The notes under the pieces were generated by a model. That model worked only from the letters and a program-made list of their open reading frames with translations. It was not told the DNA's origin and ran no database searches. The translations under genes and the position numbers were made by a program. Below are positions 2,271-64,000 of a DNA stretch of 64,000 nt, one piece after another; positions within the stretch are counted from its first letter, which is position 1, and the number at the start of each line of letters is the position of its first letter. Origin of the DNA: an archaeon. Its GTDB lineage: Archaea > Nanobdellota > Nanobdellia > SCGC-AAA011-G17 > GW2011-AR20. The stretch spans positions 2,703 through 66,702 of the forward strand of contig JAZDEO010000028.1 of NCBI GenBank assembly GCA_043808705.1, read 5' to 3'.

Positions 2271-2690
2271 TTAAAGGTTACTATCTTTGCTGTCTTTTAA
2301 ATATTTATATATTTTAGGCCATTCTCTTTTTACAAATACCTTTTCCTTTTTGAGCATTAAAGAAAAGCCCTTTCTCTTTAGCTCTTTTGTTACTATGCCG
2401 CCTGCATGAGGATGCTTGTATTTTCTTTCTAGAGGAGAATTAAAACCGTGCATATAATGGGTTAATTCATGAGCAATTGTTATGTCAATTATATATTCAG
2501 GAACTAGTTCATTTTGGAATAAAGAATTTACTACTATTTCTGAATCTTGGCCTATTTTTTTTATATGACCAAATTTTGAGAATGAAGAGCCTTTAAATTT
2601 TATTATTACATTATTTAATTTTGGGGTATCTGGAAATAATAATTCCCATATCTGTTCCAGTCTTTGATTAAGCCATATGTTGTCTCTCAT
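2271..2690 (-). CDS. HExxH zinc metallopeptidase, SprT/DUF45(YgjP)-like
   Basis: IAHELTHYMHGFNSPLERKYKHPH motif (HExxH followed by downstream His). Confidence 0.55.
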   Translation of the reverse strand: MRDNIWLNQRLEQIWELLFPDTPKLNNVIIKFKGSSFSKFGHIKKIGQDSEIVVNSLFQNELVPEYIIDITIAHELTHYMHGFNSPLERKYKHPHAGGIVTKELKRKGFSLMLKKEKVFVKREWPKIYKYLKDSKDSNL

Positions 2691-3329: not shown

Positions 3330-4805
3330 TTAATTTTTTAAAATTTTACTTTCTTTGAAATGATTATTATTACCTATTAAATGTTTATAACCTAGGTTTT
3401 CAAGACTATTTTCTTTTCTTACTCTTATTATGACAGAATCACTTACTCTTACTTTATCCATAATTTCTGAGAATTTTACTGTTGGATTTTCTTTATAAAT
3501 ATCAATTATTTTTTGTATCTTTTCCTGAGGAATCTTACATCTTGATTTATTACCTTTGTCAATTTTGTACTTTTTACAAATTCTTCGTACTACACTTTCA
3601 TGAACCCTAAACTGTTTAGCTATTAAATCATTTGATAGATTCATATTTTCTTTAATAAAATCTGCTATTTCATTTCTCTTTTCTTCATCAGTTTTTACTA
3701 CTCTTTCTCCTAGATTATTTTCTTTTAAAACCCTCTGGACTTTTATTTGGCTTACTCCAACTTTTTCAGCTATTTCCAATGTTCTTGTTGTTCCTGAATT
3801 ATACAATTCTATTATCTTTTCTATTTTTTCTTCAGGAATTTTATTCCATATCTTTTTTTCTCCAGTAAAATAACCGGTCTGATTAGAAATATCAGGATAT
3901 TCTTGCATCATAAACAAAAATTTGGAATATTTACTGGGACTTAGGCACATTAATCTTTGTTTAAGAAGTTTGACTAAGTTTTCTCTTTTTGAAATAATCA
4001 TATCCTTATAATCTTTATATTGTTTGATCTCTATTCCAATTTTATTTAAATATTCTTGATATAAATTTCTTTCATCAGAATTATTAGCTGTTAAATGGAT
4101 TCTATATTTTTTACATTTTTTGTCTATTTCCACACAACTTTCTCCTGCTAAAACTCCTTTTATAAAACTAGATATATCCTTTTTATCATAACTATGAAGA
4201 TTATAAGACAAGTTTTTTACATAGCTTTTTATTATTTGACTAAATAATTTGGATTTGTGTTCTATCATTAAAGTTCCATAATAACAATTTTTCAGTTTTG
4301 TATAATTTGAATTTTTGGTGTAAGTAACTGTTTTTGGATATTTAATTTCATCATTTATCTTTGTTTTTGATAACCAGTAATTAATTATTTTATTTTCGAT
4401 CTCTTTTTTGTAATCTAAATCATTTGGTTCTTGCATATTTAATCTAATATACCATCTCCAATTGTTGAAATTTAATTCTAATTCTTTATTGAACCATTCC
4501 ATAACTTTTTTTATTAATCGGTATTCAGAATTAGCAAAGACTAAACAACCGTTATTTGTTTTTCCCATTTCAGCTTGTAATAAACCTAGAACTTCAAATG
4601 TTTCTTCATTACATTTTATTCTTCTTGGTATTGATGTAGAGTGTTCTCTCCAAGAATCGTTAAAATGTTCAGTTATATATGATAAATCAATATAATACTC
4701 TTCAATATTAATATTTAATTTTATTTCTTTTTCATTATCACCAGACAAAATTCTATCTGGAATATACTCTTTTAGATCAATAAATTTTTTGCCCATATTA
4801 GACAA
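3330..4805 (-). CDS. LAGLIDADG-like double-motif nuclease domain fused to three C-terminal HTH repeats (491 aa)
   Basis: Two LAGLIDADG-like segments (LGLLQAEMG at ~aa 73; GVLAGESCV at ~aa 216), each ending in an acidic residue. Three tandem ~50-aa HTH repeats in the C-terminus. Own promoter with conserved upstream motif. Confidence 0.5.
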   Translation of the reverse strand: MSNMGKKFIDLKEYIPDRILSGDNEKEIKLNINIEEYYIDLSYITEHFNDSWREHSTSIPRRIKCNEETFEVLGLLQAEMGKTNNGCLVFANSEYRLIKKVMEWFNKELELNFNNWRWYIRLNMQEPNDLDYKKEIENKIINYWLSKTKINDEIKYPKTVTYTKNSNYTKLKNCYYGTLMIEHKSKLFSQIIKSYVKNLSYNLHSYDKKDISSFIKGVLAGESCVEIDKKCKKYRIHLTANNSDERNLYQEYLNKIGIEIKQYKDYKDMIISKRENLVKLLKQRLMCLSPSKYSKFLFMMQEYPDISNQTGYFTGEKKIWNKIPEEKIEKIIELYNSGTTRTLEIAEKVGVSQIKVQRVLKENNLGERVVKTDEEKRNEIADFIKENMNLSNDLIAKQFRVHESVVRRICKKYKIDKGNKSRCKIPQEKIQKIIDIYKENPTVKFSEIMDKVRVSDSVIIRVRKENSLENLGYKHLIGNNNHFKESKILKN

Positions 4806-4810
4806 TAATA

Positions 4811-4866
4811 AAGACGTTTTAGTTTATAAAGATGGGGGGGCGGAGTTGTCCAGCTGTCCCATATAA
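4811..4866 (-). promoter_or_regulatory. Conserved promoter module copy 1 (GGGACAGCTGGACAA box, 13-nt spacer, TTTATAAA TATA-like box) upstream of the 491-aa HTH gene
   Basis: A ~42-nt stretch matches 63935-63976 base for base on my reading. The GGGACAGCTGGACAA…TTTATAAA core also matches 7188-7242 on the other strand. The TATA-like box ends 24 nt before the ATG. Confidence 0.6.
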
Positions 4867-4913
4867 TAGAATATAGATGATAAAAATGAGAAATATTTAT
4901 ATTTGTTACTACT

Positions 4914-6308: not shown

Positions 6309-7085
6309 TTATTTTAATTTCTTGAATTTCTTTTCAAATTCATCTATTTTTTCATTAAGCATAACCATAGATCTTGTTAGAATTTCTTTAGGTGTCAATT
6401 GACCCCAGGATTCTATAAAGAATATGAATTTGTCTCTTGAACTTGCTACTGATATTTTTTCTGAAGATACATCAACGCATGCTTTACAGGCATCACAATT
6501 CTCTATGTTTTTTATTTCTAGTTTATTATCAAATGAAAATACATTTTTAGGACATACCTCAAAGGCTGCCCTTTCATTATAATTATTTAATTTTATTGAA
6601 GGATATTGTCTATAATATGTTAAACATGGACTAAATTTTGTATGTTTTCTTCCAACATCAAGAACAGCTATTGCTTCTAATTCTAAAGACTGGTTTGCTA
6701 ATAATTTTACTATAGGCATTTCAGGATAAACAGGAATACATTTTGGATCTTTGCTCTTTAAATCAGATGCATAAACAGTACAGGGACCTTTTACCTTTAG
6801 TGTAAATTTTAATTCACATAATGCACAACCTTTTCTACTGCATTTACATTGATCTTTTATATTGAAAGATTTAAGGTCTGTTTTTATTGGAATTAACCCC
6901 AATCTATGAGCAAGAATTTCATCATATAATGCTGATTCATTTTTTTCAAAAGTTACAACATCTATAGCTAAACAAGGTGTTTCAAACATTGTTGCTCTTC
7001 TAATTGTATTTGCAATAGTTGGATTTATTTTGTCTAGTATAAATATTAATTTGTTATCTTCTTTTTTTATGACTTTAAGTTCCAT
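6309..7085 (-). CDS. rpoD: DNA-directed RNA polymerase subunit D (Rpo3) with 4Fe-4S-type Cys cluster
   Basis: N-terminal dimerisation domain plus Cys-rich insert (CxxC…CxxC…C) typical of archaeal RpoD. Confidence 0.85.
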   Translation of the reverse strand: MELKVIKKEDNKLIFILDKINPTIANTIRRATMFETPCLAIDVVTFEKNESALYDEILAHRLGLIPIKTDLKSFNIKDQCKCSRKGCALCELKFTLKVKGPCTVYASDLKSKDPKCIPVYPEMPIVKLLANQSLELEAIAVLDVGRKHTKFSPCLTYYRQYPSIKLNNYNERAAFEVCPKNVFSFDNKLEIKNIENCDACKACVDVSSEKISVASSRDKFIFFIESWGQLTPKEILTRSMVMLNEKIDEFEKKFKKLK

Positions 7086-7187
7086 CTTAAGATACTTTCA
7101 AAAATTCGGGTTTAAAAATCTTTCTGAAATGAAGGTTTTTTGTTATTTAATCCTTTAAATAATAATACTTTAACATATATATTACAA

Positions 7188-7242
7188 CATATGGGACAGC
7201 TGGACAAATCATCGAAGAAGCTTTATAAACTAAAAAGTCTTA
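7188..7242 (+). promoter_or_regulatory. Conserved promoter module copy 3 (TATGGGACAGCTGGACAA, 13-nt spacer, CTTTATAAACTAAAAAGTCTT) upstream of the 388-aa HTH gene
   Basis: Aligns with the reverse complement of copies 1 and 2, with the same 13-nt spacer to the TATA-like box. A Shine-Dalgarno-like AGGAGGT lies 5 nt before the ATG at 7295. Confidence 0.6.
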
Positions 7243-7294
7243 ATACTATCGTCGTTATTGAGAGGAAATATTCTTGATAAAATAGGAGGTAAAA

Positions 7295-8461
7295 ATGGAA
7301 TTTTCTAAGGATCTTAGGGAATTAAACCAGGATGAATTTAAGAGGGTTTATGATTATTTAAAAGAAAAAACAAATGATTTCTCTTTTGTTTCTCCTCAAG
7401 TATTATTAGAAAATAATCAATATATGTTAATTTTTCGCATCTGTTTAGGAATGTCTCAAAGGAGTCTAGCTGAATTTATTGGCGTTACTAAAGATTGTTG
7501 CAGGCACATAGAATCAAAAAGATTAAGAATAATCAGCCTAAATAAAGTTAAAAGATACTCAGAAAAAATAAATGAATTAATATCAAACAAAAAAATAAGT
7601 TTTGATAATACTTTATTACACTGGGAAAATTATAATAAATTTCAAAAAAATCAAGTGTTCAAACCTAAATTAATTTTGAGGTCATTTAATGAATTACAAG
7701 TAAAAGATTTAAAAAAGTATTATAAGATACTATTAAACAAAACAAATAATTTTCAAAACATAACGCCGAATTTGATTATGGATGTTCCACAGATAATAGT
7801 TCTTTTAAGAGTCGCTGGATGTATTACATGTTTGAAGATTTCTAAACTTAAAATAGTTTCCCAAAAGAGTTTAAACAATTACGAGAAATTAAAATCTACT
7901 ATTAAGCTCCAAACAGCAAATAAATTCTCAAAATTCTTTAATGAACTGTTTGTTAATAATAAACCAGATTATCAAAAATTTGTGGAGAACTTTAGAATTT
8001 TAAAGGGTTTTTACGGATGCCGTGACTTAAATTTTTTAGTAGAACAAGGATTAAACAGAATGGCAAAAATAAATCCCAACCAATATGAAGATGAGATTGC
8101 TGAGTTGTTAAATAAAAATAATATTAAATTTGAAAAACACAAAATCTTGGATGGGTTAAAGACTAAGTCTAATGTTGATTTTTATATTAAAGAGAAAAAT
8201 ATAGTTATGGAAGTATTTTCTTATAACAGTAAAAAAAGAAGTGATATTAAACTAAAAGCTTGTTTTGTTGATCATAGGTTTCAATCTCTAAAATTAAAAG
8301 AACCTTGTAGGAAAACAATAATATGCATAAAAATTTATGGTAAACCTATATTACATGATTATGTAAAAAGGTATTTGACAATGGACTTAATTAATACAGA
8401 TTTTTTGTTTCTTAATAATGAAATAGAAAATCTTGCAAAAACAATCAAAGAAAATTTGTAA
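7295..8461 (+). CDS. XRE-type HTH protein with an uncharacterised C-terminal domain (388 aa)
   Basis: N-terminal LGMSQRSLAEFIGVTKDCCRHIES looks like an XRE helix-turn-helix. The C-terminus (…VDFYIKEKNIVMEVFSYNSKK…) is a possible PD-(D/E)xK-like segment. The gene is inserted between rpoD and rps11. Confidence 0.45.
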   Translation: MEFSKDLRELNQDEFKRVYDYLKEKTNDFSFVSPQVLLENNQYMLIFRICLGMSQRSLAEFIGVTKDCCRHIESKRLRIISLNKVKRYSEKINELISNKKISFDNTLLHWENYNKFQKNQVFKPKLILRSFNELQVKDLKKYYKILLNKTNNFQNITPNLIMDVPQIIVLLRVAGCITCLKISKLKIVSQKSLNNYEKLKSTIKLQTANKFSKFFNELFVNNKPDYQKFVENFRILKGFYGCRDLNFLVEQGLNRMAKINPNQYEDEIAELLNKNNIKFEKHKILDGLKTKSNVDFYIKEKNIVMEVFSYNSKKRSDIKLKACFVDHRFQSLKLKEPCRKTIICIKIYGKPILHDYVKRYLTMDLINTDFLFLNNEIENLAKTIKENL

Positions 8462-8472
8462 CTACTGTTAAG

Positions 8473-8874
8473 TCACACACGGCGGCCTCTTCGGTAGTGA
8501 GATTTTCTGCAGCCGTCCGTCGGAAACGGTGTTATATCCTCAATGCTTCCTATTCTGAAACCTTCCCTTGATAATGTTCTTACTGCTGCCTGAGCACCAG
8601 GGCCTGGATTTGAAGGACCTTCATGACCGCCAGGAGCTTTTATCTTAACATGTAAAGCATTAATGCCGTGTTCCTTAGCAATTTCTCCTGCTCTTTTTGC
8701 AGCTGCCATCGCTGCTGTTGGAGAACTCTCTAGTCTATGAGTCTTAACTACCATTCCTCCAGATGCTTTAGCAAGAGTTTCAGATCCTGTTATATCGGTA
8801 ATATGAATTATGGTATTATTATAAGAAGCATAAATATATACTAATCCCCATTTTAATTGTTTATCCCTATCCAT
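8473..8874 (-). CDS. rps11: 30S ribosomal protein S11 (uS11)
   Basis: …[27 protein letters not shown]… S11 signature; locally GC-enriched conserved coding. Confidence 0.9.
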
Positions 8875-30184: not shown

Positions 30185-30300
30185 TTAATGGCTCTGGTGC
30201 AACCCTATTTACATCACGACGGTTAGATTTTATGCGAACATTTTGTTTATCTTCGAAACTACAAAAGGGTTGCACCAGAGCCCGATTAATATTAAAAAAG
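30185..30300. repeat. ~115-bp element with ~20-bp near-perfect terminal inverted repeats (MITE-like or structured RNA)
   Basis: TTAATGGCTCTGGTGCAACCCT (30185-30206) pairs with AGGGTTGCACCAGAGCCCGATTAAT (30276-30300). GC content is raised locally. Confidence 0.55.
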
Positions 30301-30325
30301 TTGAAATATTTTTTTATTTTAATTA

Positions 30326-30403
30326 TCCTAATCGAGTAGTAACAGAAAACCTTAAAATACTTAAAAACCATTAAAAAGCTGAGTTAAAATGTCCTTAAAA
30401 AAC
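30326..30403 (+). promoter_or_regulatory. Orphan copy of the metalloprotease promoter module plus first 5 codons (ATGTCCTTAAAAAAC), then diverges and stops early
   Basis: ~75 nt near-identical to 36703-36789 (AGTAGTAACAGAAAACCTTAAA(A)TACTTAAAAACCATTAAAAA…TTAAAATGTCCTTAAAAAA). Confidence 0.6.
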
Positions 30404-30407
30404 AAGC

Positions 30408-31670
30408 TTAATTGGTTTTTATTTTTTCTAAACTATAAGGCAATATTAAAGAATATTCAATATCTTTTTGTGTATTTAGATTAATTAAGTACTTCTTTTT
30501 AGTTTTAGGATATTCTTTCATAAAAGCGTCAAGACCATTGAAATCATCAGATTTTATATTTTGTTTAAACTTTACTTCTAAAGGTATTTGTAAGCTTATA
30601 TTGTCTATAATAAAATCTACTTCAGTTTTATTTTTGTCCTGCCAAAATTTTATATTTTTGATACCCTTTTTTATTAGTTCAGAAAGCACAAAACCCTCAA
30701 ATAAAAAACCAATATCATTCCTTAAGGAGATTTCATTAAAATTCTTAATAAAAAAGTTTCTAACACCATTATCAATAAAATATACTTTTGGGATCTTTAC
30801 AAGTTCTTTATTTTTATTGGTATAAAATGGTTTTAATAAATAAACAAGATATGTTTCTTTCAATATTTCTATATAATTTTTCACTTCTTTATATCTTAAT
30901 GAAAACTTTTCTGAGATTTCTTCATATTTAATCTTTTGACCGTGGTTTACAGCCAGGTATTCTATTAAATTTTTTATATCTAAAATCTTTTCTATGTGTA
31001 AGTAACTGATTAAGTCTTTTTTTGCATATAAGTCAAATATGCTTTCTAGAACTTCTATTTTTTCTTCTTTAGTGTTCTTTAAAACAACCCCAGGATATCC
31101 ACCAAAAATGAGAAATTCTTCTAATAAGTGATTTAATTCAGGTAATAAGATGTAAAGACCATCTCCCTCTAGATTTTTTGCATTATTTAGTTTTTCAATA
31201 ATCTTATCATCTTGTTTGAACCATAAAAATTCTTCAAAATCTAATGCAAAAAGCTCGTTTACTTTTTTTCTGCCAGCAAGACTTTCCTGTACTTGGTCTT
31301 TTATAACCAAAGATGAAGAACTGGAGGCATAAATCTTTATATTATCAAAATTATCATAAACATTCTTCATAATATTTGCAAGATTAATATATTTTTGGAA
31401 TTCGTCCAAGAATAAATAATAAAAATCCTTTTCACTTTCTTTATAACCATTTAGCTTTAGAGTATTAATTAAATTTTCAAAGGTACTTATTTTTTCATAA
31501 TTGGATAGAATATCCAAATCAAGAAAAAGGCATTTGTTAGTTTTTGAAAGCTCTTTATAAAGCTCTTTTAATAATGTTGTTTTTCCAACCTGTCTTGGAC
31601 CTAAAATTATAGATATCTTTTTATCTTTTCTTTGTTCTTTTATCCTTTCAAACAGTTTTCTTGGTAGCAT
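30408..31670 (-). CDS. AAA+ ATPase (AAA_14 + DUF4143 family), paralog 1
   Basis: Walker A ILGPRQVGKTTLLKEL; paralogous to 31867-33126 and 35299-36687. Confidence 0.75.
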   Translation of the reverse strand: MLPRKLFERIKEQRKDKKISIILGPRQVGKTTLLKELYKELSKTNKCLFLDLDILSNYEKISTFENLINTLKLNGYKESEKDFYYLFLDEFQKYINLANIMKNVYDNFDNIKIYASSSSSLVIKDQVQESLAGRKKVNELFALDFEEFLWFKQDDKIIEKLNNAKNLEGDGLYILLPELNHLLEEFLIFGGYPGVVLKNTKEEKIEVLESIFDLYAKKDLISYLHIEKILDIKNLIEYLAVNHGQKIKYEEISEKFSLRYKEVKNYIEILKETYLVYLLKPFYTNKNKELVKIPKVYFIDNGVRNFFIKNFNEISLRNDIGFLFEGFVLSELIKKGIKNIKFWQDKNKTEVDFIIDNISLQIPLEVKFKQNIKSDDFNGLDAFMKEYPKTKKKYLINLNTQKDIEYSLILPYSLEKIKTN

Positions 31671-31810
31671 TTTGTGTTTTTGTTTGTATTTTTATTCTAA
31701 ATTACATCTTTCTTTATTCTAGAGTACTCTAAAATTACTAAATATAGAATAATAGAGTACTATATAAACCTTTCCCTTTTCATATTTTTATTGTTCTATT
31801 TTATATTATC

Positions 31811-31850
31811 CCAACAAAGTAGTAACAGAAAACCTTAAATACTAATATTA
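31811..31850 (+). promoter_or_regulatory. AGTAGTAACAGAAAACCTTAAATAC promoter-module copy (orphan) between AAA paralogs
   Basis: Matches the module at 30334, 36712, and (reverse complement) 44217; a diverged copy is at 33207. Confidence 0.5.
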
Positions 31851-31866: not shown

Positions 31867-33126
31867 TTATATTGTTGTTTTGTTTAATAATACAAAATAA
31901 AATGGTATAACTTTAATTGTTTTATCTTCAAAATTTATCTCTTGTTTTTTGTTATAACTGATTATGTATCCTATCTTAATATTAAATTTCTTCATGAATT
32001 TTTTTAAACCATCAATATCTATCTTTCCATATTTTATTTCTATAGGTTTTATTATCCCTTTATCCATTTTTATTATGTCTACCTCATTTTTTGATGTATC
32101 TATATAAAAGAATTCAGCTTCTAATTGAATTACAATAAAGTTCTCAAAGGCTTTTGATATTTTTTCAGAGTCTATTAAATCGGGATGTATTATTGAACAA
32201 TAGAACTTCTTTGACTTCTTTTCTGTTTTTCTTATGTTTCTTGAAAAATTATAAAGTTTTCTTATTAAGAAAGAATCCTCAAGATACCTTAAATACAAGC
32301 TTAATGTTTGCCTGGATACAGATAACTCTGAACTTAGCTTGCTTATTTCTATAATTTGTCCTGGATTTAACATTATTATTCTTACTATCTTATCAAGTAA
32401 ATCAATATCCTTAATATCAAAAATTTCGGGAATATCTTTATAGATTATCTTTTCGATTATGCTTTCTTTTAGATATTTTTTGCATGTTTCTATATCTTCA
32501 TTTATTAACTCTGGAAAGCCGTTTGTGATTATATACTGCCTGAATAGATTTAATATATCTCTTTCATACAGTTCTAGATTTTCTCCAATCTTAATATTTT
32601 TAAAAGATATAAATTCTTTAAAGCTTAAAGGTTTTATACTAAATTCATAGAATCTACCTGCGAGACTCTCTCTAGATTTCTTTCTTATAAATAGAGATTC
32701 AGAACCAGAAATTATAAATTTTATATTAGGATAGTTATCATAATATCTTTTTATTTGTTCTTCCCAGTTTTCTAATTTTTGTATTTCATCAAAAAAGAAA
32801 ATATATTTTTCACTTTCAATATTTTTTCCAAATATGTCACAATAAGCTTCTATTACTTCTCTTATTTTAACATCATTAAAATAATCAAAAGAGAAATATA
32901 CAACATTTTCTTTGTTTAGAATTTTTAAATTCTCTTCTATTATTTTAAACATTATTGTTGTTTTTCCTACCCTTCTTAAACCTGTAAGTGCAATAATCTG
33001 TCTTTTATCAATAAATTTTTTTATTTCACCATAAATCTCTCTTGATTTAAACTCTATAGAGAAATCTTTAGTCCACCATTTATTAACATCTCTAAATGCT
33101 GATTTTATATCACTTATTTCTTGCAT
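31867..33126 (-). CDS. AAA+ ATPase (DUF4143 family), paralog 2
   Basis: Walker A LTGLRRVGKTTIMFKI; paralog. Confidence 0.75.
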   Translation of the reverse strand: MQEISDIKSAFRDVNKWWTKDFSIEFKSREIYGEIKKFIDKRQIIALTGLRRVGKTTIMFKIIEENLKILNKENVVYFSFDYFNDVKIREVIEAYCDIFGKNIESEKYIFFFDEIQKLENWEEQIKRYYDNYPNIKFIISGSESLFIRKKSRESLAGRFYEFSIKPLSFKEFISFKNIKIGENLELYERDILNLFRQYIITNGFPELINEDIETCKKYLKESIIEKIIYKDIPEIFDIKDIDLLDKIVRIIMLNPGQIIEISKLSSELSVSRQTLSLYLRYLEDSFLIRKLYNFSRNIRKTEKKSKKFYCSIIHPDLIDSEKISKAFENFIVIQLEAEFFYIDTSKNEVDIIKMDKGIIKPIEIKYGKIDIDGLKKFMKKFNIKIGYIISYNKKQEINFEDKTIKVIPFYFVLLNKTTI

Positions 33127-33245
33127 CTTATAATTAACTTATTATTAATAATATGTTAAGTGTGATTAACATATTTAAATGTTTCTATTTTATATCATTA
33201 TAATCAAGTAGTAACAGAGAAGATTATATAGTTAAAAAGAATAAA

Positions 33246-33329: not shown

Positions 33330-33617
33330 ATGAAATACTATATTAAAACAATCAAGTTAAAGGCTTTGCCTGTATTAAAGAAGTATAATATAGCTAGAGC
33401 CGGTATATTCGGAAGTTATGCTAGAGGAGACTATAAAAAGAATAGTGATGTAGATATGTTAATTGAAGTTAAAGATGGTTTCAGTTTACTTGACTTAATT
33501 GGTTTAGAAATGGAACTTAAGAAAATTTTAAAGAAGAAGGTTGATTTATTGACATATGGTTGTATTCATCCTTTATTGAAGGAAAAAATATTAAATGAAG
33601 AGATAAGGATAATATGA
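33330..33617 (+). CDS. minimal nucleotidyltransferase (MNT) antitoxin-type
   Basis: GIFGSYARGDYKKNSDVDMLIEV motif (GS…D.D). Confidence 0.8.
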   Translation: MKYYIKTIKLKALPVLKKYNIARAGIFGSYARGDYKKNSDVDMLIEVKDGFSLLDLIGLEMELKKILKKKVDLLTYGCIHPLLKEKILNEEIRII

Positions 33618-33976
33618 AAAAGGACCCATTAATTTTTATTAGTCATGTTTCAGATAGTATAAACAATATAGAATCATTCTCTAAAAATTTATCTAAAGAT
33701 AAGTTTATTAAAGATAAATTAAGACAAAGTGCGATTATAAGGCAACTAGAAATAATTGGAGAGGCAACAAAAAATCTCCCTTTGGAATTTAGAAAAAAAT
33801 ATCCTGAAACCAAGTGGAAGGAAATTGCTGGGTTAAGAGACAAAATAACCCACCACTATTTTGGCATTAATTTGAATATTGTCTGGGAGGTTGTTGAAAA
33901 GGATATACCTAAATTAAAAGAGAATATCAAAAATATTTTAGATGATTTAAAAGAAGAGAATTCTAATAAAACTTAA
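33614..33976 (+). CDS. HEPN (DUF86) toxin-type protein
   Basis: RDKITHHYFGINLNIVWEVV (Rx4-6H HEPN motif); overlaps the MNT stop. Confidence 0.8.
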   Translation: MKKDPLIFISHVSDSINNIESFSKNLSKDKFIKDKLRQSAIIRQLEIIGEATKNLPLEFRKKYPETKWKEIAGLRDKITHHYFGINLNIVWEVVEKDIPKLKENIKNILDDLKEENSNKT

Positions 33977-34105: not shown

Positions 34106-34378
34106 ATGCAAGTTGAATTAACTAGAATATCTGAAAAAGGACAGGTTGTAATTCCAAGTTCATTAAGAAAAGAAATGGGAATAAATAAATCAGACCAGTT
34201 TATGATATTTGGAGAAGATGGTACTTTAATCCTAAAGAAAATAGAGAAACCAGTTATAAAAAAGAGTTTTGATGAAATAGCAAAACCTTTAAGGATGATT
34301 GCTGAAAAAACAGGATTGACAAAGAAAGATTTAGAAAAAGCTATTAGAGATGTAAGAAATGTTAAGAATAGTTCTTGA
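34106..34378 (+). CDS. vapB: AbrB/SpoVT/MazE-family antitoxin (VapB-like)
   Basis: ISEKGQVVIPSSLRKEMGI swapped-hairpin motif. Confidence 0.75.
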   Translation: MQVELTRISEKGQVVIPSSLRKEMGINKSDQFMIFGEDGTLILKKIEKPVIKKSFDEIAKPLRMIAEKTGLTKKDLEKAIRDVRNVKNSS

Positions 34379-34781
34379 TACAAATGTTTTAGTGTCTGCT
34401 TTCTTTTGGGATGGTAATGAAGCAGAGTTATTTAGAAAAATAGAAGAAAAAAAGGTAGTTCTTCTTATTTCTCAAGAGATTTTAAAAGAGCTTGAAGATG
34501 TTCTTAACAGACCCAAATTTAAAGAGATCATGATTAAGTCTAATATCAATTCAAATGAGATTATACAAAAGATAATTTCAGTTTCACATCTTGTTATTGG
34601 AAATAAACTAAATATCTCTATTTGCAGAGATGAAAAAGACAACAAATTTTTAGAGTGTGCTGAACACGCTAAAGCTGATTATATTGTAAGTGGAGATAGA
34701 GATTTACTTGTTTTAAAACAATATATTAATATTAAAATAGTAAAGACATCTGAAATATTAAAGATAATAACAGTTATATAA
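34359..34781 (+). CDS. vapC: PIN-domain toxin VapC
   Basis: RIVLDTNVLVSAF…VSGDRDLL acidic PIN residues; overlaps vapB. Confidence 0.8.
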   Translation: MLRIVLDTNVLVSAFFWDGNEAELFRKIEEKKVVLLISQEILKELEDVLNRPKFKEIMIKSNINSNEIIQKIISVSHLVIGNKLNISICRDEKDNKFLECAEHAKADYIVSGDRDLLVLKQYINIKIVKTSEILKIITVI

Positions 34782-34995: not shown

Positions 34996-35060
34996 TCTAT
35001 CGTCGTTAAAAAGCGACTCCAAAAAGAGGAGCTTTTTGCTTTAAAGAAAAAATATTTAAA
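34996..35060. terminator. Repeat B: bulged hairpin flanked by A- and T-runs on either strand (bidirectional terminator-like), copy 1
   Basis: ATCGTCGTTAAAAAGCGACTCCAAAAAGAGGAGCTTTTTGCTTTAAAGAAAAAA; copies at 34996, 41412 and 46916. Confidence 0.5.
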
Positions 35061-35298: not shown

Positions 35299-36687
35299 CT
35301 ATTCTAATAACCATTTCCATAAAGGAATAAACTGTATTCCCTGCTCTTCTTTTTCCAAATCTTTCGTAATAACAATCAGTTCTTTTGTCTTATTAAACTT
35401 ATTTTTAAAGTCCAGTAAACTATTTATCTCTCTCTCATCTATTTTATTAGTGTAAGAAACATTAATGGCTGTTAAACTCTGGTCTTTATTCTTTATAACA
35501 AAATCAACTTCATACTTATCTTTCCAGTAATATACATCAAGTTCCTTTCTTCTTAGTTCTATGAATACAAGGTTTTCAACAAGCTTTCCCTCATCCTTAG
35601 AAAATTTAAATGAAACCGCATTTCTTAATCCATTATCTATACAGTATATTTTTCTTGGTTTTTGAATCATAATTGATTCTTTTAAAGAATAAGAAAAATA
35701 CTTTAACTGAAATATCAAATAAGCTTCTTCTAAGTAATTTAAATACTCTCTTAGACTATTAATATTAATACCAATATTTTTAGATATCTTATTGTAACTA
35801 AATTCTGTAGATATATTAGTTATGGTATAATAAGCTAATTCTGTTAATTTTCCCATTTCCCTAACATTTTTTGATTTGACTATATCTCTAAATAAAATAC
35901 CATCAAAATATTCCTTTAATCTTTTATTATTTATATCATCATTATTTTCCAATACAACCTCTGGAAATCCGCCTTTGTTTAAATAATCTAAGAGATAATG
36001 CTTTATTTCCTCTTTTTGTAGTATCATGCTATCTATCTTAACTTGATTAAAATTAAGAAATTCTTTAAAAAATAAAGGAAAGATTTGTTTTGTTAAAATT
36101 CTTCCAGTAAGTAATTTTAGTAAATTGCTTGAAAGCATAGAGCTATTTGAACCAGTAATAATAAATTTTATTTCGTTTCCATACATATCATAATATTTTT
36201 TAATCCACCTTTCCCATTCATTAATAACTTGTATTTCATCAAAGAAAACATATTTTCTACCTTTTGGATTATTTATTTCTAAAAATGTTGTAAATACTTG
36301 CTCAAGAACTTCAGTACTTTTATCTTGCAAAGGCTCATCAAAATTAAAGTATAATATATTTTTTGCATTTGTATTATTATTTATTAAATCATTAATTGTT
36401 TGATAAATAAATGTTGATTTTCCAGACCTTCTAACACCAGTTAATACTAGTATTTCCTTTGTTTTTATTAATTTAAGAATATCTTTTAAAATCTCTCCTC
36501 TTATTATCAATACCTTATTCTCTGGAACTTTTTTATATTCCCACCATACATTCCATTTTACAAGTAATTCTTTCATGTTTATTTCTTTCATACCAATAAT
36601 TAATAATTTGTTGCTTATAAATCTTTGCATTGTGATTAAAGGTTTACTATCAAAACTATCATTTATGATTAAAGGTTTATAAGACAT
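35299..36687 (-). CDS. AAA+ ATPase (DUF4143 family), paralog 3
   Basis: Walker A LTGVRRSGKSTFIYQ; paralog. Confidence 0.75.
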   Translation of the reverse strand: MSYKPLIINDSFDSKPLITMQRFISNKLLIIGMKEINMKELLVKWNVWWEYKKVPENKVLIIRGEILKDILKLIKTKEILVLTGVRRSGKSTFIYQTINDLINNNTNAKNILYFNFDEPLQDKSTEVLEQVFTTFLEINNPKGRKYVFFDEIQVINEWERWIKKYYDMYGNEIKFIITGSNSSMLSSNLLKLLTGRILTKQIFPLFFKEFLNFNQVKIDSMILQKEEIKHYLLDYLNKGGFPEVVLENNDDINNKRLKEYFDGILFRDIVKSKNVREMGKLTELAYYTITNISTEFSYNKISKNIGININSLREYLNYLEEAYLIFQLKYFSYSLKESIMIQKPRKIYCIDNGLRNAVSFKFSKDEGKLVENLVFIELRRKELDVYYWKDKYEVDFVIKNKDQSLTAINVSYTNKIDEREINSLLDFKNKFNKTKELIVITKDLEKEEQGIQFIPLWKWLLE

Positions 36688-36702
36688 ATTTTATATAATT
36701 AT

Positions 36703-36774
36703 CCTAATCAAGTAGTAACAGAAAACCTTAAATACTTAAAAACCATTAAAAATACAATTAAAAGGTTGATTAAA
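36703..36774 (+). promoter_or_regulatory. Metalloprotease promoter module (AGTAGTAACAGAAAACCTTAAATACTTAAAAACC…), full copy
   Basis: Directly upstream of the ATG at 36775. Similar module in reverse complement upstream of the paralog at 44174-44235. Confidence 0.55.
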
Positions 36775-38193
36775 ATGTCCTTAAAAAATATTGTTAATGG
36801 AATAAAACATAAAGCAAAGATAGCTGCATTTACAGGACTGGCTGCTTTGGTGTTAGCAGGAACTCCTAAAAAAAGTGATGCTCAAATGCTTTATGGATAT
36901 GTTACTGATGTTATAACAGGACAAGGGATTCCTGATATGAAGGTAATAAATGATGGTGTAGATTCAACTGTTACAGATATTGACGGATATTATAATTTAT
37001 TTGTGACTTATGCTCCTCCTGTTGGTCCTCCAATCATACATCCACAGCTTATAAGGGGAAGATTAATTGATGTATTTAATATTAGGGGAAGTAAAGTTGG
37101 AACACTAAATGAAGGACAAGGATTAGAGGACTTTATAAGAGATAGAGGATTAGCCTTTTCAAATATATATATTTTAAGAACACCTGTACATGATTATTTT
37201 TCTAAGGGTTTTGCAAATCAGCTTGTTGTTATGTTAAATAATAGTGTTGTTGGAACAGGAAAAGAATCTTATACTATTAGAACTGTAAATGCAGATCAGA
37301 ATAATTTTGTTGTTAATTCATCTAGTACAAACCAGAACGCTTTAAGGAATAATAGGAGTAATTATAATGGTCTTAGAGGAAATAGAAGTCTAGATGAAAC
37401 TATTCCTTTATTAATATTCAGAGATGAATCTGATACAACTGATGGAAAATATTGGGACATTGAAAGACAAAATTTTGAAATTTCAGGAGATTCTGCTCAT
37501 AATGAAGAGATGGTTCCAACTTGGATGACTCATATTAGCAATCCTTTTGATTCTACTTTTGTGGATTATAATTACTGGGCAACTATCTTAGATTTTGACC
37601 CAGTTGACCCCACTAATTATGATTTCAATAGTTGGAAATATTGGGATTATGATTCTATAGGAGTTTATGTTCCTCAAGAACCACCTGGTTCAACTCATGA
37701 TTATCAACAACTAGTCATAAATTCTTTAATGGGAAAAACTTCACAAGGAGATCCTTATGATGGATGGAATACTGGAGTAGCTGACTTAAACAGAGCTAAT
37801 AATTATCCTGTATTTTTTATTGCTCCTGACTGCACTTATGTTATTAATAATGGTGGAGCTTTTGTTCAATATTTTCCTACTGCATCATTCAATGCTCACG
37901 TTACTACACTTAGAGGACCCCCTTCACCTTTAAAGAGAATAGAATTTAATTTAGGTTACTTTAATTCAAAATCAGATTCTATTTTTTTAGAAATATCTGC
38001 TCATGAATTTGGTCATGTACAAGGATTAGCAGAAGCATATGATAATGTATATTCTGATAGAATAATGTATGGTAATGTAGGTAATCCTCTCTTCTATACG
38101 GGTGATGGAACAATAGATGATTATTCAAAAAGCGTAGCTACTATAATACGTAACAGAACAGACAATAATTATGGAATTATTAAAAAAAAGTAA
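36775..38193 (+). CDS. secreted HExxH zinc metalloprotease (paralog 1)
   Basis: Start MSLKNIVNG… at the ATG at 36775 (the track's 36766 is a TTG start). Signal peptide; ISAHEFGHVQGL zinc motif near the C-terminus. Confidence 0.6.
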   Translation: MSLKNIVNGIKHKAKIAAFTGLAALVLAGTPKKSDAQMLYGYVTDVITGQGIPDMKVINDGVDSTVTDIDGYYNLFVTYAPPVGPPIIHPQLIRGRLIDVFNIRGSKVGTLNEGQGLEDFIRDRGLAFSNIYILRTPVHDYFSKGFANQLVVMLNNSVVGTGKESYTIRTVNADQNNFVVNSSSTNQNALRNNRSNYNGLRGNRSLDETIPLLIFRDESDTTDGKYWDIERQNFEISGDSAHNEEMVPTWMTHISNPFDSTFVDYNYWATILDFDPVDPTNYDFNSWKYWDYDSIGVYVPQEPPGSTHDYQQLVINSLMGKTSQGDPYDGWNTGVADLNRANNYPVFFIAPDCTYVINNGGAFVQYFPTASFNAHVTTLRGPPSPLKRIEFNLGYFNSKSDSIFLEISAHEFGHVQGLAEAYDNVYSDRIMYGNVGNPLFYTGDGTIDDYSKSVATIIRNRTDNNYGIIKKK

Positions 38194-41390: not shown

Positions 41391-41474
41391 AAGAAAATTA
41401 TGTGCCTAAGCTAGTAAAATATCGTCGTTAAAAAGCGACTCCAAAAAGAGGAGCTTTTTGCTTTAAAGAAAAAA
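41391..41474. repeat. Partial repeat A fused to repeat B (copy 2), followed by repeat C copy 2 at 41478-41550
   Basis: AAGAAAATTATGTGCCTAAGC then TAGTAAAATATCGTCGTTAAAAAGCGACTCC…. Confidence 0.6.
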
Positions 41475-44173: not shown

Positions 44174-44385
44174 TTTAACTCATTAAGCTATTATAAGTTT
44201 ATGTATTTAAATCTTTCTGTTACTACTATGTTGAGATAATTAATTTAAGTTAAGTCAAGGGGGCAAACTAGGGTTGCGGCACTCTTCTTGTAGTGTTCTT
44301 TGGTACTTTATCTTTTAAGAAACTCTTCAATATCATCAAATTTAATATTAACATAAGTCTTTAATTTATTTTTTGTAAATAGTTA

Positions 44386-62886: not shown

Positions 62887-63233
62887 AAAACTATCACAGA
62901 GTTTGGAATTTTCTGGAATGGATTGTTTAGTTTTAATTCCAATCCAAATGCCTCCTCTCTTAATTTTGCTCCTAAATCTTAACCAGTAAGGAGCAACGGT
63001 ATTTTTAGGTTTATTCTCAATTTTAGTAAGTTGAGACCATAATGTAAGAGGATATTCTTTATATCAGTTAAAGCAAGAACACTCAGTTTTTAAAAACTGA
63101 GATGAATTGCGTAAACTATTTCTTCTAGAACTAAAATAAAAGTAGCGTAGCATTGACGCTATGCTACTTGAAACTCACGCTTAGCATGAGCTATATTTTC
63201 TGAGAATAAAAACTTTGCGTCAGGAGCTAAAAA

Positions 63234-63713: not shown

Positions 63714-63913
63714 TGACGCTCGGGCACTTTAGTGCCGAGTAGTTCACATTTAATGTTTTTAAATTCCCAATTTTTAGCAGTTTTATAAGAAGAATATATT
63801 CCTTCATCAATGCCAAAAATCATCCATTTCTGAAATCCATTATACTCAAAATCAATTATATTTCTCTTAAAATTAGTTAACCCAATAATGCCACCACAAA
63901 CAGTAATTTTCAT
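63710..63913 (-). CDS. hypothetical 67-aa ORF, possibly the N-terminal fragment of a gene disrupted by the IS200/605 insertion
   Basis: Begins MKITVCGGIIGL… (Rossmann-like N-terminus), has its own conserved promoter module, and ends inside the IS hairpin region. Confidence 0.25.
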   Translation of the reverse strand: MKITVCGGIIGLTNFKRNIIDFEYNGFQKWMIFGIDEGIYSSYKTAKNWEFKNIKCELLGTKVPERH

Positions 63914-63921
63914 ACATTATA

Positions 63922-63976
63922 TAAGACTTTTTCATTTATAAAGATGGGGGGGCGGAGTTGTCCAGCTGTCCCATAT
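63922..63976 (-). promoter_or_regulatory. Conserved promoter module copy 2 (identical G-rich box + TATA-like box) upstream of the 63710-63913 ORF
   Basis: 42/42 nt identical to 4823-4865 on my reading; the TATA-like box TTTATAAA lies ~25 nt upstream of the ATG. Confidence 0.6.
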
Positions 63977-64000
63977 ACTAGAAAATATATGTTAAAATAT

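What the first reader, a model, noticed from the sequence alone, without database searches (positions are those of the whole stretch)
7188..8461. Second promoter-cassette gene (XRE-HTH, 388 aa) wedged between rpoD and rps11
The conserved S11-RpoD junction is interrupted by a plus-strand gene transcribed against the operon. It has the same upstream box as the 491-aa gene, an N-terminal XRE helix-turn-helix and a C-terminal region with a possible PD-(D/E)xK-like D…E.K arrangement. Two different HTH genes with the same promoter cassette, both inserted into the same core operon, suggests a targeted or recurrent insertion mechanism.
Basis: partly seen in the sequence, partly recalled or inferred. 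Interest (0 to 1): 0.55.

Follow-up and report, generated by a model that had tools for sequence, protein, structure and literature searches.

The report
Site-specific HTH-nuclease gene beside S11
A 388-aa gene that fuses two XRE-type DNA-binding modules to a restriction-endonuclease-like domain sits, with its own conserved promoter cassette, always at the S11/RpoD junction of a ribosomal operon, but only in a scattered minority of Woesearchaeota, so it looks like a free-standing homing-endonuclease-type selfish gene rather than an ordinary regulator.

Summary
ORF 7295-8461 (+) lies between rpoD and S11, both on the minus strand. The upstream box (7190-7241) recurs before the 491-aa gene and a third time at 63923-63975.

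The protein has two tandem XRE-HTH modules and a C-terminal domain with a confident PD-(D/E)xK fold. E265, D295 and E306 are conserved across the whole family. The canonical Lys is Phe in this clade, while distant one-module relatives keep ExK.

In about 20 independent contexts the gene lies convergent to S11, within 0-60 bp of its stop codon. Only 2 of 80 related species carry it. In 71 of 77 species S11 abuts RpoD (median gap 2 nt). Sister species differ by a clean 1.42-kb indel.

The gene tree conflicts locally with the host tree, and dS is 4-8 times that of the flanking genes in one pair. All copies are intact and dN/dS is about 0.08.

A second, unrelated family of about 400 aa (HTH plus LAGLIDADG-like motifs) occupies the same site in other genomes. 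A conserved promoter cassette (A/T box, GACA direct repeats, GC-rich spacer, TATA) precedes both families and the 491-aa gene across genomes.

Best reading: a site-specific selfish nuclease gene. Nuclease activity is not proven. A domesticated regulator remains a serious rival.

The parts
7165..7243 (+). Promoter cassette. It consists of an A/T box (acATATATATTa, ~7173-7184), the direct repeat GGGACA-gct-GGACAA (7192-7207), a 13-nt spacer and the TATA box CTTTATAAA (7221-7229).
   Evidence: Exact repeats in the window. An nhmmer profile built from 14 instances places it at 7165-7243 (E 4e-12) and finds no other instance in 1.08 Mb outside these gene families. The same architecture lies upstream of homologues in 9 other genomes.
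7285..7290 (+). Shine-Dalgarno-like GGAGGT, 4 nt before the ATG. The window copy has a leader of about 40 nt, whereas most homologues have the ATG about 25 nt after the TATA box (leaderless).
   Evidence: Read directly from the sequence. The transcription start site is inferred, not measured.
7295..8461 (+). The 388-aa ORF (NCBI: hypothetical protein V1663_03275).
7295..7669 (+). XRE-type HTH module 1 (aa 1-125): a leading helix with the K(T)NxF motif followed by a five-helix HTH.
   Evidence: Pfam HTH_3, aa 51-93, E 4.7e-7. AF2 pLDDT about 90.
7670..8044 (+). HTH module 2 (aa 126-250), a diverged tandem copy of module 1.
   Evidence: BLASTP of module 1 against module 2: E 7e-8, 23% identity over 96 aa. 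The helix pattern is the same. Relatives carry 1 to 4 such modules.
8072..8458 (+). C-terminal domain with a PD-(D/E)xK (restriction-endonuclease-like) fold (aa 260-388). Key residues are E265, D295, E306-V-F308 and an invariant D326-H-R-F-Q-x-x-K333.
   Evidence: AF2 pLDDT 92.4, pTM 0.87, alpha-beta-beta-beta-alpha-beta core. Foldseek against PDB: Can2 nuclease domain, AF1548, Bax1, Mus81/XPF, Cas4 (prob up to 0.99, best E 3.6e-3). Foldseek against BFVD: 13 hits with E<1e-3, all nucleases (restriction endonuclease, DUF559, Holliday junction resolvase, Endonuclease I). Residue conservation.
8458..8472 (-). Boundary motif CAGTAGTTAC, next to the S11 stop codon on the S11 strand. It overlaps the ORF's own stop codon on the other strand.
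   Evidence: GTAGT occurs within 25 nt after the S11 stop in 11 of 21 carriers (both families) and in 0 of 76 empty sites. Fisher p = 3.5e-9, not corrected for phylogeny. Its function is unexplained.
7086..7164 (-). Spacer that probably carries a new promoter for rpoD (TTTTTAAA, 27 nt before the rpoD ATG). Such a promoter is needed because the insertion cuts rpoD off from the S13-S4-S11 transcript.
   Evidence: Sequence. This is an inference only.
4809..4886 (-). Second copy of the cassette, driving the 491-aa gene (3330-4805, -; LAGLIDADG-like domain plus an HTH array) inserted between S9 and RpoN. AGTAGTAAC (4905-4913) directly follows the S9 stop codon.
   Evidence: A 60%-identical homologue occupies the same position, with the same type of cassette, in L001.
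63921..63999 (-). Third copy of the cassette, before a 67-aa ORF (63710-63913, -). That ORF is followed by an IS200-type tnpA (63234-63713, +) and a 5'-truncated tnpB (62182-62886, -).

Best explanation
The 388-aa gene is a free-standing, site-specific selfish gene of the homing-endonuclease type.

Its two tandem XRE-HTH modules recognise a long, asymmetric DNA site. The C-terminal PD-(D/E)xK domain most likely still binds metal through E265/D295/E306. An invariant Asp-His (D326-H327) or a nearby Lys may stand in for the lost canonical Lys. This domain would cut or nick the unoccupied S11/RpoD junction of related genomes.

Repair using an occupied allele would then copy in the whole unit: gene, promoter cassette and a replacement rpoD promoter. 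The highly conserved S11 and rpoD genes would serve as homology arms. This would explain why the gene is always in the same place and orientation.

Expression comes from a conserved archaeal promoter cassette (A/T box, two GACA direct repeats, GC-rich spacer, TATA). The repeats are a likely operator. Autorepression by the protein's own tandem HTH modules is one possibility.

Shown: the gene, its domains and fold, conservation of the acidic triad, the strict position, the patchy distribution, the empty and filled alleles, the local tree conflicts, purifying selection, the second family at the same site, and conservation of the cassette.

Inferred: nuclease activity, the target site, transfer by homing, and what binds the repeats.
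For: (1) Fold. AF2 model of aa 260-388: pLDDT 92, pTM 0.87. All top Foldseek hits are PD-(D/E)xK nucleases (13 viral hits with E<1e-3).

(2) Active site. E265, D295 and E306 are conserved in nearly all of the roughly 130 full-length relatives. Distant one-module relatives keep the canonical D...ExK. D326-H327 occurs together with both ExK and ExF/T, which is compatible with a rewired rather than a decayed active site.

(3) Position. The gene is convergent to S11 and within about 0-60 bp of its stop in every context seen, in about 20 lineages down to 29-38% identity.

(4) Insertion rather than ancestral gene. Only 2 of 80 GTDB Woesearchaeota species carry it. In 71 of 77 the S11-RpoD gap is at most 109 nt, with a median of 2 nt. 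Carriers are scattered in the host tree. Two close pairs differ in occupancy: L011/L017 and L008/L066. L011 and L017 differ by a clean 1.42-kb indel.

(5) Horizontal exchange. There are supported conflicts between the gene tree and the host tree. For L102/L009 the flanks are 91-97% identical (aa) but the gene is 71% identical, with dS 2.29 against 0.27-0.56 for the flanks. For L011/L095 the gene's dN is 0.17, against 0.34-0.45 for S13, S4 and RpoD.

(6) The gene is functional. All copies are intact and dN/dS is about 0.08 (L102/L009 pair).

(7) Same site, different occupant. An unrelated family of about 400 aa (wHTH plus LAGLIDADG-like motifs, 44 homologues) sits at the same place and in the same orientation in L018, L070, L109, L110 and L111.

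(8) Cassette. The promoter cassette is conserved across genomes and is shared with the 491-aa gene (window and L001) and with family 2 (L018, L110). Nothing else in 1.08 Mb matches it.

(9) Modularity. Relatives carry 1 to 4 HTH modules, as expected for recognition of long target sites.
Against: - The canonical catalytic Lys is Phe in the whole two-module clade, so activity is unproven and the domain could be inactive.
- Foldseek E-values are modest. The best PDB hit is 3.6e-3.
- No degenerate copies or remnants were found in empty or enlarged junctions. The classical homing cycle predicts some.
- At coarse scale the gene tree follows the host tree. That also fits long vertical descent with losses.
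- dS values above 1 are saturated, and ribosomal genes may have depressed dS.
- No homologue was found in phage or viral collections, so no vector is known.
- No conserved candidate target sequence could be derived from the empty sites.
- The cassette also occurs in L018, whose S11 junction holds family 2 rather than this gene. The protein is therefore probably not the only factor binding the repeats, if it binds them at all.
Confidence: 0.5

Rival explanations
1. Domesticated or host-serving DNA-binding protein. The nuclease domain is catalytically dead (Lys replaced by Phe) and serves for dimerisation or DNA binding. The protein is a lineage-specific regulator, for example a repressor acting on the GACA-repeat promoters (its own, the LAGLIDADG-like genes and the IS-associated ORF), or an insulator between the S11 and rpoD transcription units. 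In this reading it is inherited vertically with frequent loss.
For: - Loss of the canonical Lys throughout the clade.
- Strong purifying selection and no pseudogenes.
- Coarse congruence of the gene tree and the host tree.
- Tandem HTH modules matching tandem direct repeats in the cassette. Within each genome the cassettes of different genes are nearly identical (window; L001: 114 nt at 74% with a 35-nt identical core), as expected for operators that co-evolve with one binding protein.
- Precedent from my own knowledge and PMC3240954: WhiA is a degenerate LAGLIDADG domain plus an HTH that acts as a transcription factor.
Against: - Present in only 2 of 80 related species, with clean empty sites in sister species.
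- Local tree conflicts and the dS excess indicate horizontal replacement.
- The acidic triad E265/D295/E306 stays invariant where a dead domain should drift.
- An unrelated family occupies the same site.
- The cassette is present where this gene is absent from the junction (L018).
Confidence: 0.28
2. The gene is cargo of an unrecognised cassette-type mobile system. The promoter cassette and the (A)GTAGTAAC boundary motif would be the functional ends, and different genes (this family, family 2, the 491-aa gene, an IS-associated ORF) would be swapped into them by a recombination mechanism encoded elsewhere. The 388-aa protein would not itself drive insertion.
For: - The same cassette is found with four different gene types.
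- Cassette copies within one genome are nearly identical.
- The GTAGT(A/T)A(C) motif abuts the upstream ribosomal gene's stop in 11 of 21 carriers of both families, in 0 of 76 empty sites, and also after S9 before the 491-aa gene.
Against: - The motif lies on the promoter side for the 491-aa gene but on the 3' side for this gene. It therefore follows the ribosomal gene, not the cargo.
- No recombinase is linked to these loci in any context.
- Other copies of the motif in the window belong to a different repeated cassette.
- About half of the carriers lack the motif.
Confidence: 0.1
3. Solitary restriction-type or defence nuclease with a fused controller-like HTH. It would sit at the operon junction only because that is one of the few places where an insertion is tolerated.
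For: - PD-(D/E)xK fold.
- Weak Pfam hits of relatives to HSDR_N and REase families (P0095).
- Weak PADLOC hit PDC-M24B, E 4.6e-5.
- Fusions or pairings of an XRE HTH with a nuclease are common in restriction-modification controller systems (own knowledge).
Against: - No DNA methyltransferase or other defence gene is adjacent in any of about 25 contexts.
- Strict conservation of one site and one orientation over deep divergence is not expected from mere tolerance.
- Defence genes normally cluster in variable islands, not inside the ribosomal operon.
Confidence: 0.07

Closest known systems
Free-standing homing endonuclease genes of T4-like phages (seg GIY-YIG and mob HNH genes; 'intronless homing')
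   Same: - A stand-alone nuclease gene with its own promoter, inserted between conserved genes.
- Patchy presence among relatives.
- The same junction is occupied by unrelated nuclease families in different genomes.
- Spread through recombination with conserved flanks.
(The comparison rests on my own knowledge of the phage systems. The properties of the present gene come.)
   Different: - The host is a cellular DPANN archaeon and the site is a ribosomal/RNAP operon.
- The nuclease fold is PD-(D/E)xK with a non-canonical motif.
- DNA binding is by tandem XRE-HTH modules.
- No cleavage activity or homing has been shown.
I-Ssp6803I, the PD-(D/E)xK homing endonuclease of a cyanobacterial tRNA intron (reviewed in PMC3943268 and PMC3384342)
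   Same: Shows that the restriction-endonuclease fold can serve homing. The catalytic superfamily is the same.
   Different: I-Ssp6803I is small, intron-encoded, tetrameric, has a canonical motif and has no HTH modules. There is no detectable sequence similarity (PDB profile search).
I-TevI as transcriptional autorepressor (own knowledge: Edgell et al. 2004)
   Same: A homing endonuclease with an HTH-containing DNA-binding domain that also binds an operator in its own promoter. This is the model proposed here for the GACA repeats.
   Different: I-TevI has a GIY-YIG nuclease and is intron-encoded in a phage. Here operator binding is only inferred.
WhiA-type domesticated homing-endonuclease-plus-HTH transcription factors (PMC3240954)
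   Same: A nuclease-derived domain lacking a canonical catalytic residue, fused to an HTH, possibly acting as a regulator.
   Different: WhiA is universally conserved in its clade and its acidic catalytic residues are gone. Here the gene is patchy, shows horizontal exchange and keeps its acidic triad.
Mobile promoter cassettes (PeSL) of T4-type phages (own knowledge: Arbiol et al. 2010)
   Same: A short conserved promoter module repeated in front of unrelated, often selfish, genes within one genome.
   Different: This is an archaeal BRE/TATA-type promoter with direct repeats, conserved across genomes separated by about 50% protein identity. No stem-loop is present and no recombination role has been shown.

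Membership tests
PD-(D/E)xK nuclease superfamily | alpha-beta-beta-beta-alpha-beta core fold | tested here: met
   AF2 pLDDT 92, pTM 0.87. Foldseek hits to Can2, AF1548, Mus81/XPF, Cas4, DUF559 and Endonuclease I with prob 0.99-1.00.
PD-(D/E)xK nuclease superfamily | Catalytic signature: D on beta2, (D/E)-x-K on beta3, often an E on alpha1 | tested here: inconclusive
   E265, D295 and E306 are present and nearly universal in the family. The K position is F308 in this clade, while it is K/R in distant relatives.
Homing endonuclease (free-standing) | Sporadic presence at one conserved genomic site, with intact empty alleles in relatives | tested here: met
   Same site in about 20 contexts. 2 of 80 species are carriers. 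Median S11-RpoD gap is 2 nt in the others. L011 (filled) and L017 (empty) differ by a clean 1.42-kb indel.
Homing endonuclease (free-standing) | Evidence of horizontal transfer between lineages | tested here: met
   Supported topological conflicts. dS 2.29 against 0.27-0.56 for L102/L009. Gene dN is lower than flank dN for L011/L095. The evidence is moderate: distance trees and saturated dS.
Homing endonuclease (free-standing) | Site-specific cleavage of the empty allele, with the occupied allele immune | not testable with these tools
   Needs biochemistry. No conserved target could be derived from the empty junctions.
XRE-family HTH DNA-binding proteins | Cro/C1-type five-helix HTH domain | tested here: met
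   Pfam HTH_3, E 4.7e-7, 30.2 bits against a cut-off of 23. A second, diverged copy is present.
XRE-family transcription regulators | Binds an operator and regulates transcription | not testable with these tools
   Conserved GACA direct repeats upstream of the TATA box are a candidate operator. There are no binding data.
Type II restriction-modification system | Adjacent cognate DNA methyltransferase | tested here: not met
   The neighbours are S11/S4/S13 and RpoD or unrelated genes in all contexts. The one-module relative P0076 lies next to Topo VI genes and a tRNA-type methyltransferase.
LAGLIDADG homing endonucleases (for the neighbouring 491-aa gene and for 'family 2' at the same site) | Two LAGLIDADG motifs about 90-110 aa apart, each with a conserved acidic residue, and the LAGLIDADG fold | tested here: inconclusive
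   491-aa gene: Pfam LAGLIDADG_3, E 5e-4, 20.6 bits against a cut-off of 22.5. Family 2: invariant FDG(S) and IDEG motifs 94 aa apart, but Pfam gives only E 0.03-0.13 and there is no PDB hit.

The most novel reading that the evidence does not exclude
Woesearchaeota (DPANN archaea) would harbour a previously undescribed guild of site-specific selfish nuclease genes that colonise fixed junctions of the ribosomal-protein/RNA-polymerase operon (S11|RpoD and S9|RpoN). One member would be a new homing-endonuclease architecture: an array of 1-4 XRE-HTH modules acting as a modular reader of a long DNA site, fused to a PD-(D/E)xK domain whose catalytic Lys has been replaced (possibly by an Asp-His pair). 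These unrelated genes would be tied together by one conserved, co-evolving promoter/operator cassette and a common boundary motif. That implies a shared regulator or a shared mobilisation mechanism.
Probability: 0.3. Interest if true: 0.8.

Novelty: new variant of a known kind. Interest (0 to 1): 0.62.

Why it matters
If the protein is an active site-specific nuclease, it would be the first free-standing homing-type endonuclease system described in DPANN archaea. Its DNA-recognition part would be built from repeated HTH modules (1-4 copies in relatives), which is of interest for programmable DNA recognition.

It would also show that even the most conserved operon of very small, reduced genomes is a landing pad for selfish genes. 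It splits the S13-S4-S11-RpoD transcription unit and forces a new rpoD promoter.

The conserved promoter cassette shared by unrelated nuclease genes offers a testable handle on transcription control in organisms with almost no experimental genetics.

If instead the protein is a domesticated regulator, it is a further example of nuclease-to-regulator conversion, of the WhiA type, caught at an intermediate stage.

Tried and rejected
- Rfam and tRNA scans of the window found nothing, so this is not an intron, tRNA-linked or known RNA element.
- Sequence searches of the family against PDB gave only weak HTH hits. NCBIfam and PHROGs gave only HTH or regulator hits.
- Foldseek with the full-length model was uninformative because of the multi-domain arrangement (pTM 0.43). 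The C-terminal domain was therefore re-modelled alone.
- The exact window motif GGGACAGCTGGAC is absent from other loci. The cassette is conserved in architecture and in its GACA core, not base for base.
- No homologue was found in GenBank phages or IMG/VR.
- A search for decayed remnants of either family in enlarged but unoccupied junctions (L041, L089, L092, L030) found none.
- I looked for a resemblance between the cassette repeats and the S11 3' end, as with the I-TevI operator and its homing site. A weak similarity in the window was not reproduced in L011 and I judged it chance.
- I looked for systematic sequence differences in the last 16 codons of S11 between carriers and empty sites, as a possible immunity signature. 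No clear one emerged.
- BLASTP of the family-2 protein against the 491-aa protein shows no similarity. Literature searches found no description of such genes in DPANN.
- Considered and rejected: a restriction-modification system (no methyltransferase), an IS or transposon (no transposase or inverted repeats around the gene), and an ordinary conserved regulator (2 of 80 species).
Full report
**1. What is there**

The window is a low-GC (about 28%) DPANN archaeal contig. NCBI labels the product of the target ORF 'hypothetical protein V1663_03275 [archaeon]'.

Coordinates 1-12 kb hold the archaeal S13-S4-S11 / RpoD-L18e-L13-S9 / RpoN gene string on the minus strand. ORF 7295-8461 on the plus strand (388 aa) lies between rpoD (6309-7085) and S11 (8473-8874). 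It is convergent with S11, and only 11 nt separate the two stop codons.

- TATGGGACAGCTGGACAA, followed 13-17 nt later by CTTTATAAACTAAAAnGTCTT, occurs three times in 64 kb. No shuffle reaches that count.
- Copy 1 is before this ORF (7190-7241, +).
- Copy 2 is before the 491-aa gene between S9 and RpoN (4811-4863, -).
- Copy 3 is at 63923-63975 (-), before a 67-aa ORF. An IS200-type tnpA and a 5'-truncated tnpB follow that ORF.

**2. The protein**

Pfam finds HTH_3 at aa 51-93 (E 4.7e-7). The AF2 model and a BLASTP of the first 125 aa against the next 125 aa (E 7e-8) show two tandem copies of one module: a leading helix carrying a K-T-N-x-F motif plus a five-helix XRE HTH.

The last 129 aa, modelled alone with the family alignment, give pLDDT 92.4 and pTM 0.87, with an alpha-beta-beta-beta-alpha-beta core.
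- Foldseek against PDB returns almost only PD-(D/E)xK nucleases: Can2 nuclease domain, AF1548, Bax1, Mus81/XPF, Cas4 SSO0001, XisH and R.BspD6I. Probability reaches 0.99, TM-score (query-normalised) 0.5-0.63, and the best E-value is 3.6e-3.
- Against predicted viral structures, 13 hits have E<1e-3. All are nucleases: restriction endonuclease, DUF559, Holliday junction resolvase, Endonuclease I and a PD-(D/E)XK domain protein.

The fold assignment is therefore well supported. The catalytic signature is not canonical.
- E265 (alpha1), D295 (beta2) and E306 (beta3) are present and nearly universal across about 130 relatives.
- The Lys of (D/E)xK is Phe308 here and in all close homologues. It is Thr or Ser in the three- and four-module relatives, and Lys or Arg only in distant one-module relatives.
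- An invariant D326-H-R-F-Q-x-x-K333 lies on the following helix. The D-H pair coexists with ExK in some relatives and persists after the Lys is lost.

I read the unbroken conservation of the acidic triad as evidence that metal binding, and probably catalysis, is retained with a relocated general base. This is an inference.

**3. The family**

The 90%-cluster search finds only 20 proteins, all from Woesearchaeota/Nanoarchaeota metagenome bins. The profile search of 1.8 billion representatives finds 229 proteins (50 with E<1e-30). They carry one, two, three or four HTH modules (about 260, 390, 520 and 670 aa) in front of the same C-terminal domain. No library names the family beyond 'XRE HTH'.

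**4. Position**

Every genomic context recovered shows the gene convergent to S11, with 0-60 bp between the two genes. This covers 7 homologues looked up individually, 2 carriers among the genome loci and 14 of 15 metagenome loci (the fifteenth is cut by a contig end). It holds down to 29-38% protein identity.

The link is to the 3' end of S11, not to rpoD. In L005, L009, L013 and L099 further genes lie between the gene and rpoD.

**5. It is an insertion and it is patchy**

A scan of one genome per GTDB species with the window's S11 returned 80 Woesearchaeota loci with 61-79% S11 identity.
- Only two carry the family (L016 and L049).
- In 71 of the 77 loci that include rpoD, the S11-RpoD gap is at most 109 nt. 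The median is 2 nt and many overlap by 1-4 nt.
- In a neighbour-joining tree of S13+S4+S11+RpoD, carriers fall in at least three places among non-carriers.
- Two close pairs differ in occupancy: L011 against L017, and L008 against L066.
- L011 and L017 align at 77-81% nucleotide identity on both sides of a clean indel of about 1.42 kb. In L017 the S11 stop codon is directly followed by the rpoD ATG.

**6. Vertical or horizontal?**

At coarse scale the gene tree and the host tree agree on three major groups. Locally there are supported conflicts:
- The host tree joins L009+L102 (100%), but the gene tree joins L008+L009 (72%).
- The host tree joins L001+L095 (99.5%), but the gene tree joins L011+L095 (75%).
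- The host tree joins L005+L099 (99.5%), but the gene places L099 with the window group (88%).

L102 and L009 have S13, S4 and S11 at 91-97% amino-acid identity, but the gene is only 71% identical. Its dS is 2.29 against 0.27-0.56 for the flanks. Conversely, for L011/L095 the gene's dN (0.17) is well below that of S13, S4 and RpoD (0.34-0.45), although the gene normally evolves several times faster than they do.

These are the signatures of allele replacement or transfer among related lineages, always into the same site. Caveats: the trees are distance trees, dS above 1 is saturated, and ribosomal genes may have reduced dS.

All copies are intact. Several simply use GTG, TTG or possibly ATT start codons. 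dN/dS is about 0.08 (L102/L009 pair).

**7. A second occupant of the same site**

In L018 and L070 the S11-RpoD junction holds an unrelated gene of 401-416 aa in the same convergent orientation.
- It has 44 homologues. Three further contexts (L109, L110 and L111, the last at 34% identity) again place it against the 3' end of S11.
- It has a C-terminal winged HTH (HTH_5 in 26 of 27 members).
- It has two invariant motifs, ASHLMFDGSF and ALIIDEGxVED, 94 residues apart. These look like a double LAGLIDADG signature.
- Pfam support is only E 0.03-0.13 and no structure could be predicted, so the LAGLIDADG assignment is tentative.

The 491-aa neighbour in the window has LAGLIDADG_3 at E 5e-4, just under the cut-off, and a C-terminal array of HTH motifs. 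It has a 60%-identical homologue next to S9 in L001 and a shorter one next to S9 in L063. A family-2-like gene lies after RpoN in L057.

The junctions of this operon are thus recurrent landing sites for HTH-plus-nuclease-like genes.

**8. The promoter cassette**

Upstream regions of the homologues share one architecture: an A/T box (AAAATATATATT), about 9 nt, two direct repeats with a GACA core, about 12 nt of strikingly GC-rich spacer, a TATA box (CTTATAAA), and then the ATG about 25 nt later. Most copies are therefore leaderless. The window copy has an extra leader of about 40 nt with GGAGGT.

Examples of the direct repeats are GGGACAgctGGACAA, CTTGACAcaCTTGACA, ACGGACAcaCCGGACA and CTAGACGCTAGACA.

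A profile of 14 instances, searched against 1.08 Mb (the window plus all loci), finds only these genes:
- the 388-aa family in 10 genomes;
- the 491-aa gene in the window and in L001;
- the family-2 gene in L018 (weakly in L070, and by eye in L110);
- the IS-associated ORF in the window.

Within a genome, the cassettes of different genes are nearly identical. In the window two copies share 41 identical nt. In L001 the two copies are 74% identical over 114 nt with a 35-nt identical core. Between genomes only the architecture and the GACA core persist.

That pattern suggests operators co-evolving with a genome-specific DNA-binding factor, or gene conversion between copies. The tandem HTH modules of the 388-aa protein are an obvious candidate reader of tandem repeats. 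However, the cassette also occurs where the S11 junction holds family 2, so the assignment is open.

**9. Mechanism proposed**

Best-supported reading (confidence about 0.5): a free-standing, site-specific selfish nuclease gene.
- The HTH array reads a long site at the unoccupied S11/RpoD junction.
- The PD-(D/E)xK domain cuts or nicks it.
- Repair from an occupied allele copies in the gene, its cassette and a replacement rpoD promoter (TTTTTAAA, 27 nt before the rpoD ATG), using S11 and rpoD as homology arms.
- The cassette gives tightly controlled, possibly autorepressed, expression.

Main rival (about 0.28): a domesticated, catalytically dead derivative acting as a regulator or insulator and inherited vertically with losses.

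Minor rivals: cargo of an unknown cassette-type mobile system, or a solitary defence or restriction nuclease. For the latter, no methyltransferase is seen in any context, and only weak PADLOC and Pfam hints exist.

**10. Comparison with known systems**

The gene behaves like the free-standing seg and mob endonuclease genes of T4-type phages (own knowledge). It uses the fold known from I-Ssp6803I (PMC3943268, PMC3384342) and may combine cleavage with promoter binding as I-TevI does (own knowledge).

It differs from all of these in host (a cellular DPANN archaeon), site (the ribosomal/RNAP operon), domain architecture (tandem XRE-HTH array plus a PD-(D/E)xK domain without the Lys) and the shared archaeal promoter cassette. 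WhiA (PMC3240954) is the model for the domestication rival. Literature searches found no description of such genes in DPANN.

I file it as a new variant of a known kind, with nuclease activity and homing unproven.

**11. Unexplained**

On the strand of the upstream ribosomal gene, (A)GTAGTAAC follows the stop codon within 0-9 nt.
- This is seen in 9 of 16 carriers of the family, in 2 of 5 carriers of family 2, and after S9 before the 491-aa gene in the window (in L001 as AGTGGTAAC).
- It is seen in none of 76 empty sites.
- The octamer is 7-fold enriched in the window. The other copies belong to a different 60-nt repeated cassette near AAA-ATPase-like genes.

Whether it is a 3'-end signal, an insertion-end sequence or a protein-binding site is open.

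Noticed in passing
window 3330-4805 (-), cassette 4809-4886, motif 4905-4913: A 491-aa gene sits between S9 and RpoN. It has a LAGLIDADG-like domain (Pfam E 5e-4, just under the cut-off) and a C-terminal array of 3-4 HTH motifs (weak Cbp1-like hit). It has the same promoter cassette and is probably leaderless from the ATG at 4793. A 60%-identical homologue lies at the same place in L001 and a shorter one in L063.
   Followed up: partly
window 62182-63999: The third cassette copy (63921-63999, -) precedes a 67-aa ORF with no family hit. An IS200-type tnpA (63234-63713, +) and a 5'-truncated tnpB (62182-62886, -; guided_TnpB E 4e-44) follow it. It looks like a disrupted IS200/IS605 element whose upstream ORF uses the same promoter cassette as the two HTH-nuclease genes.
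   Followed up: partly
L018 6425-7630, L070 6410-7660, L109/L110/L111 4001-~5210: An unrelated family of about 400 aa (44 homologues) has a winged HTH and invariant FDGS / IDEG motifs 94 aa apart. It occupies exactly the same position and orientation next to the S11 stop as the 388-aa family, in other Woesearchaeota. The LAGLIDADG fold is not verified.
   Followed up: partly
window 8458-8472 and 4905-4913; L001 ~1300-1310; many carrier loci: The motif (A)GTAGTAAC lies directly after the stop codon of S11 or S9 wherever an insertion follows (11 of 21 carriers, 0 of 76 empty sites). Its function is unknown.
   Followed up: partly
window 30298-30358, 31781-31841, 33170-33230, 36674-36734, 44198-44248: A second repeated cassette of about 60 nt (TTTTATATAATTATCCTAATCAAGTAGTAACAGAAAACCTTAAATA) occurs five times. 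It lies beside three paralogous 419-462 aa ATPase-like genes (30408-31670, 31867-33126, 35299-36687) and upstream of the 475-aa gene 36766-38193. Neighbouring small genes resemble nucleotidyltransferase/HEPN-like and PIN/AbrB-like toxin-antitoxin pairs (33330-33976, 34106-34781). This region looks like a variable or defence-type island.
   Followed up: no
window 34998-35052 and 41420-41474; 41760-42420 vs 43064-43745: There is a 55-nt perfect direct repeat 6.4 kb apart. A duplication of about 0.6-0.7 kb at 83% identity lies 1.3 kb apart. I did not examine either further.
   Followed up: no
L001-L003 2624-5003; L005 1166-5901; L009 1432-1803: Further non-ribosomal genes are inserted around rpoD in carrier genomes. 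In L001 a 367-aa ORF on the opposite strand lies between rpoD and L18e. In L005 five genes, including a TrmB-like regulator and Dus, lie between the family gene and rpoD. The operon is unusually permeable to insertions in these lineages.
   Followed up: no
L112 5001-5846: A one-module relative with the canonical D...ExK motif (P0076, 281 aa) lies just downstream of the Topo VI B and A genes, with a single GGACA, a spacer and a TATA box about 130 nt upstream. This hints that other members of the wider family also sit beside conserved informational genes.
   Followed up: partly
window 2271-2690 (-): A 139-aa ORF with an HExxH motif (AHELTHYMHG), possibly a SprT/WLM-like metalloprotease, lies within the same gene string between the L7Ae-like and RpoN genes.
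   Followed up: no
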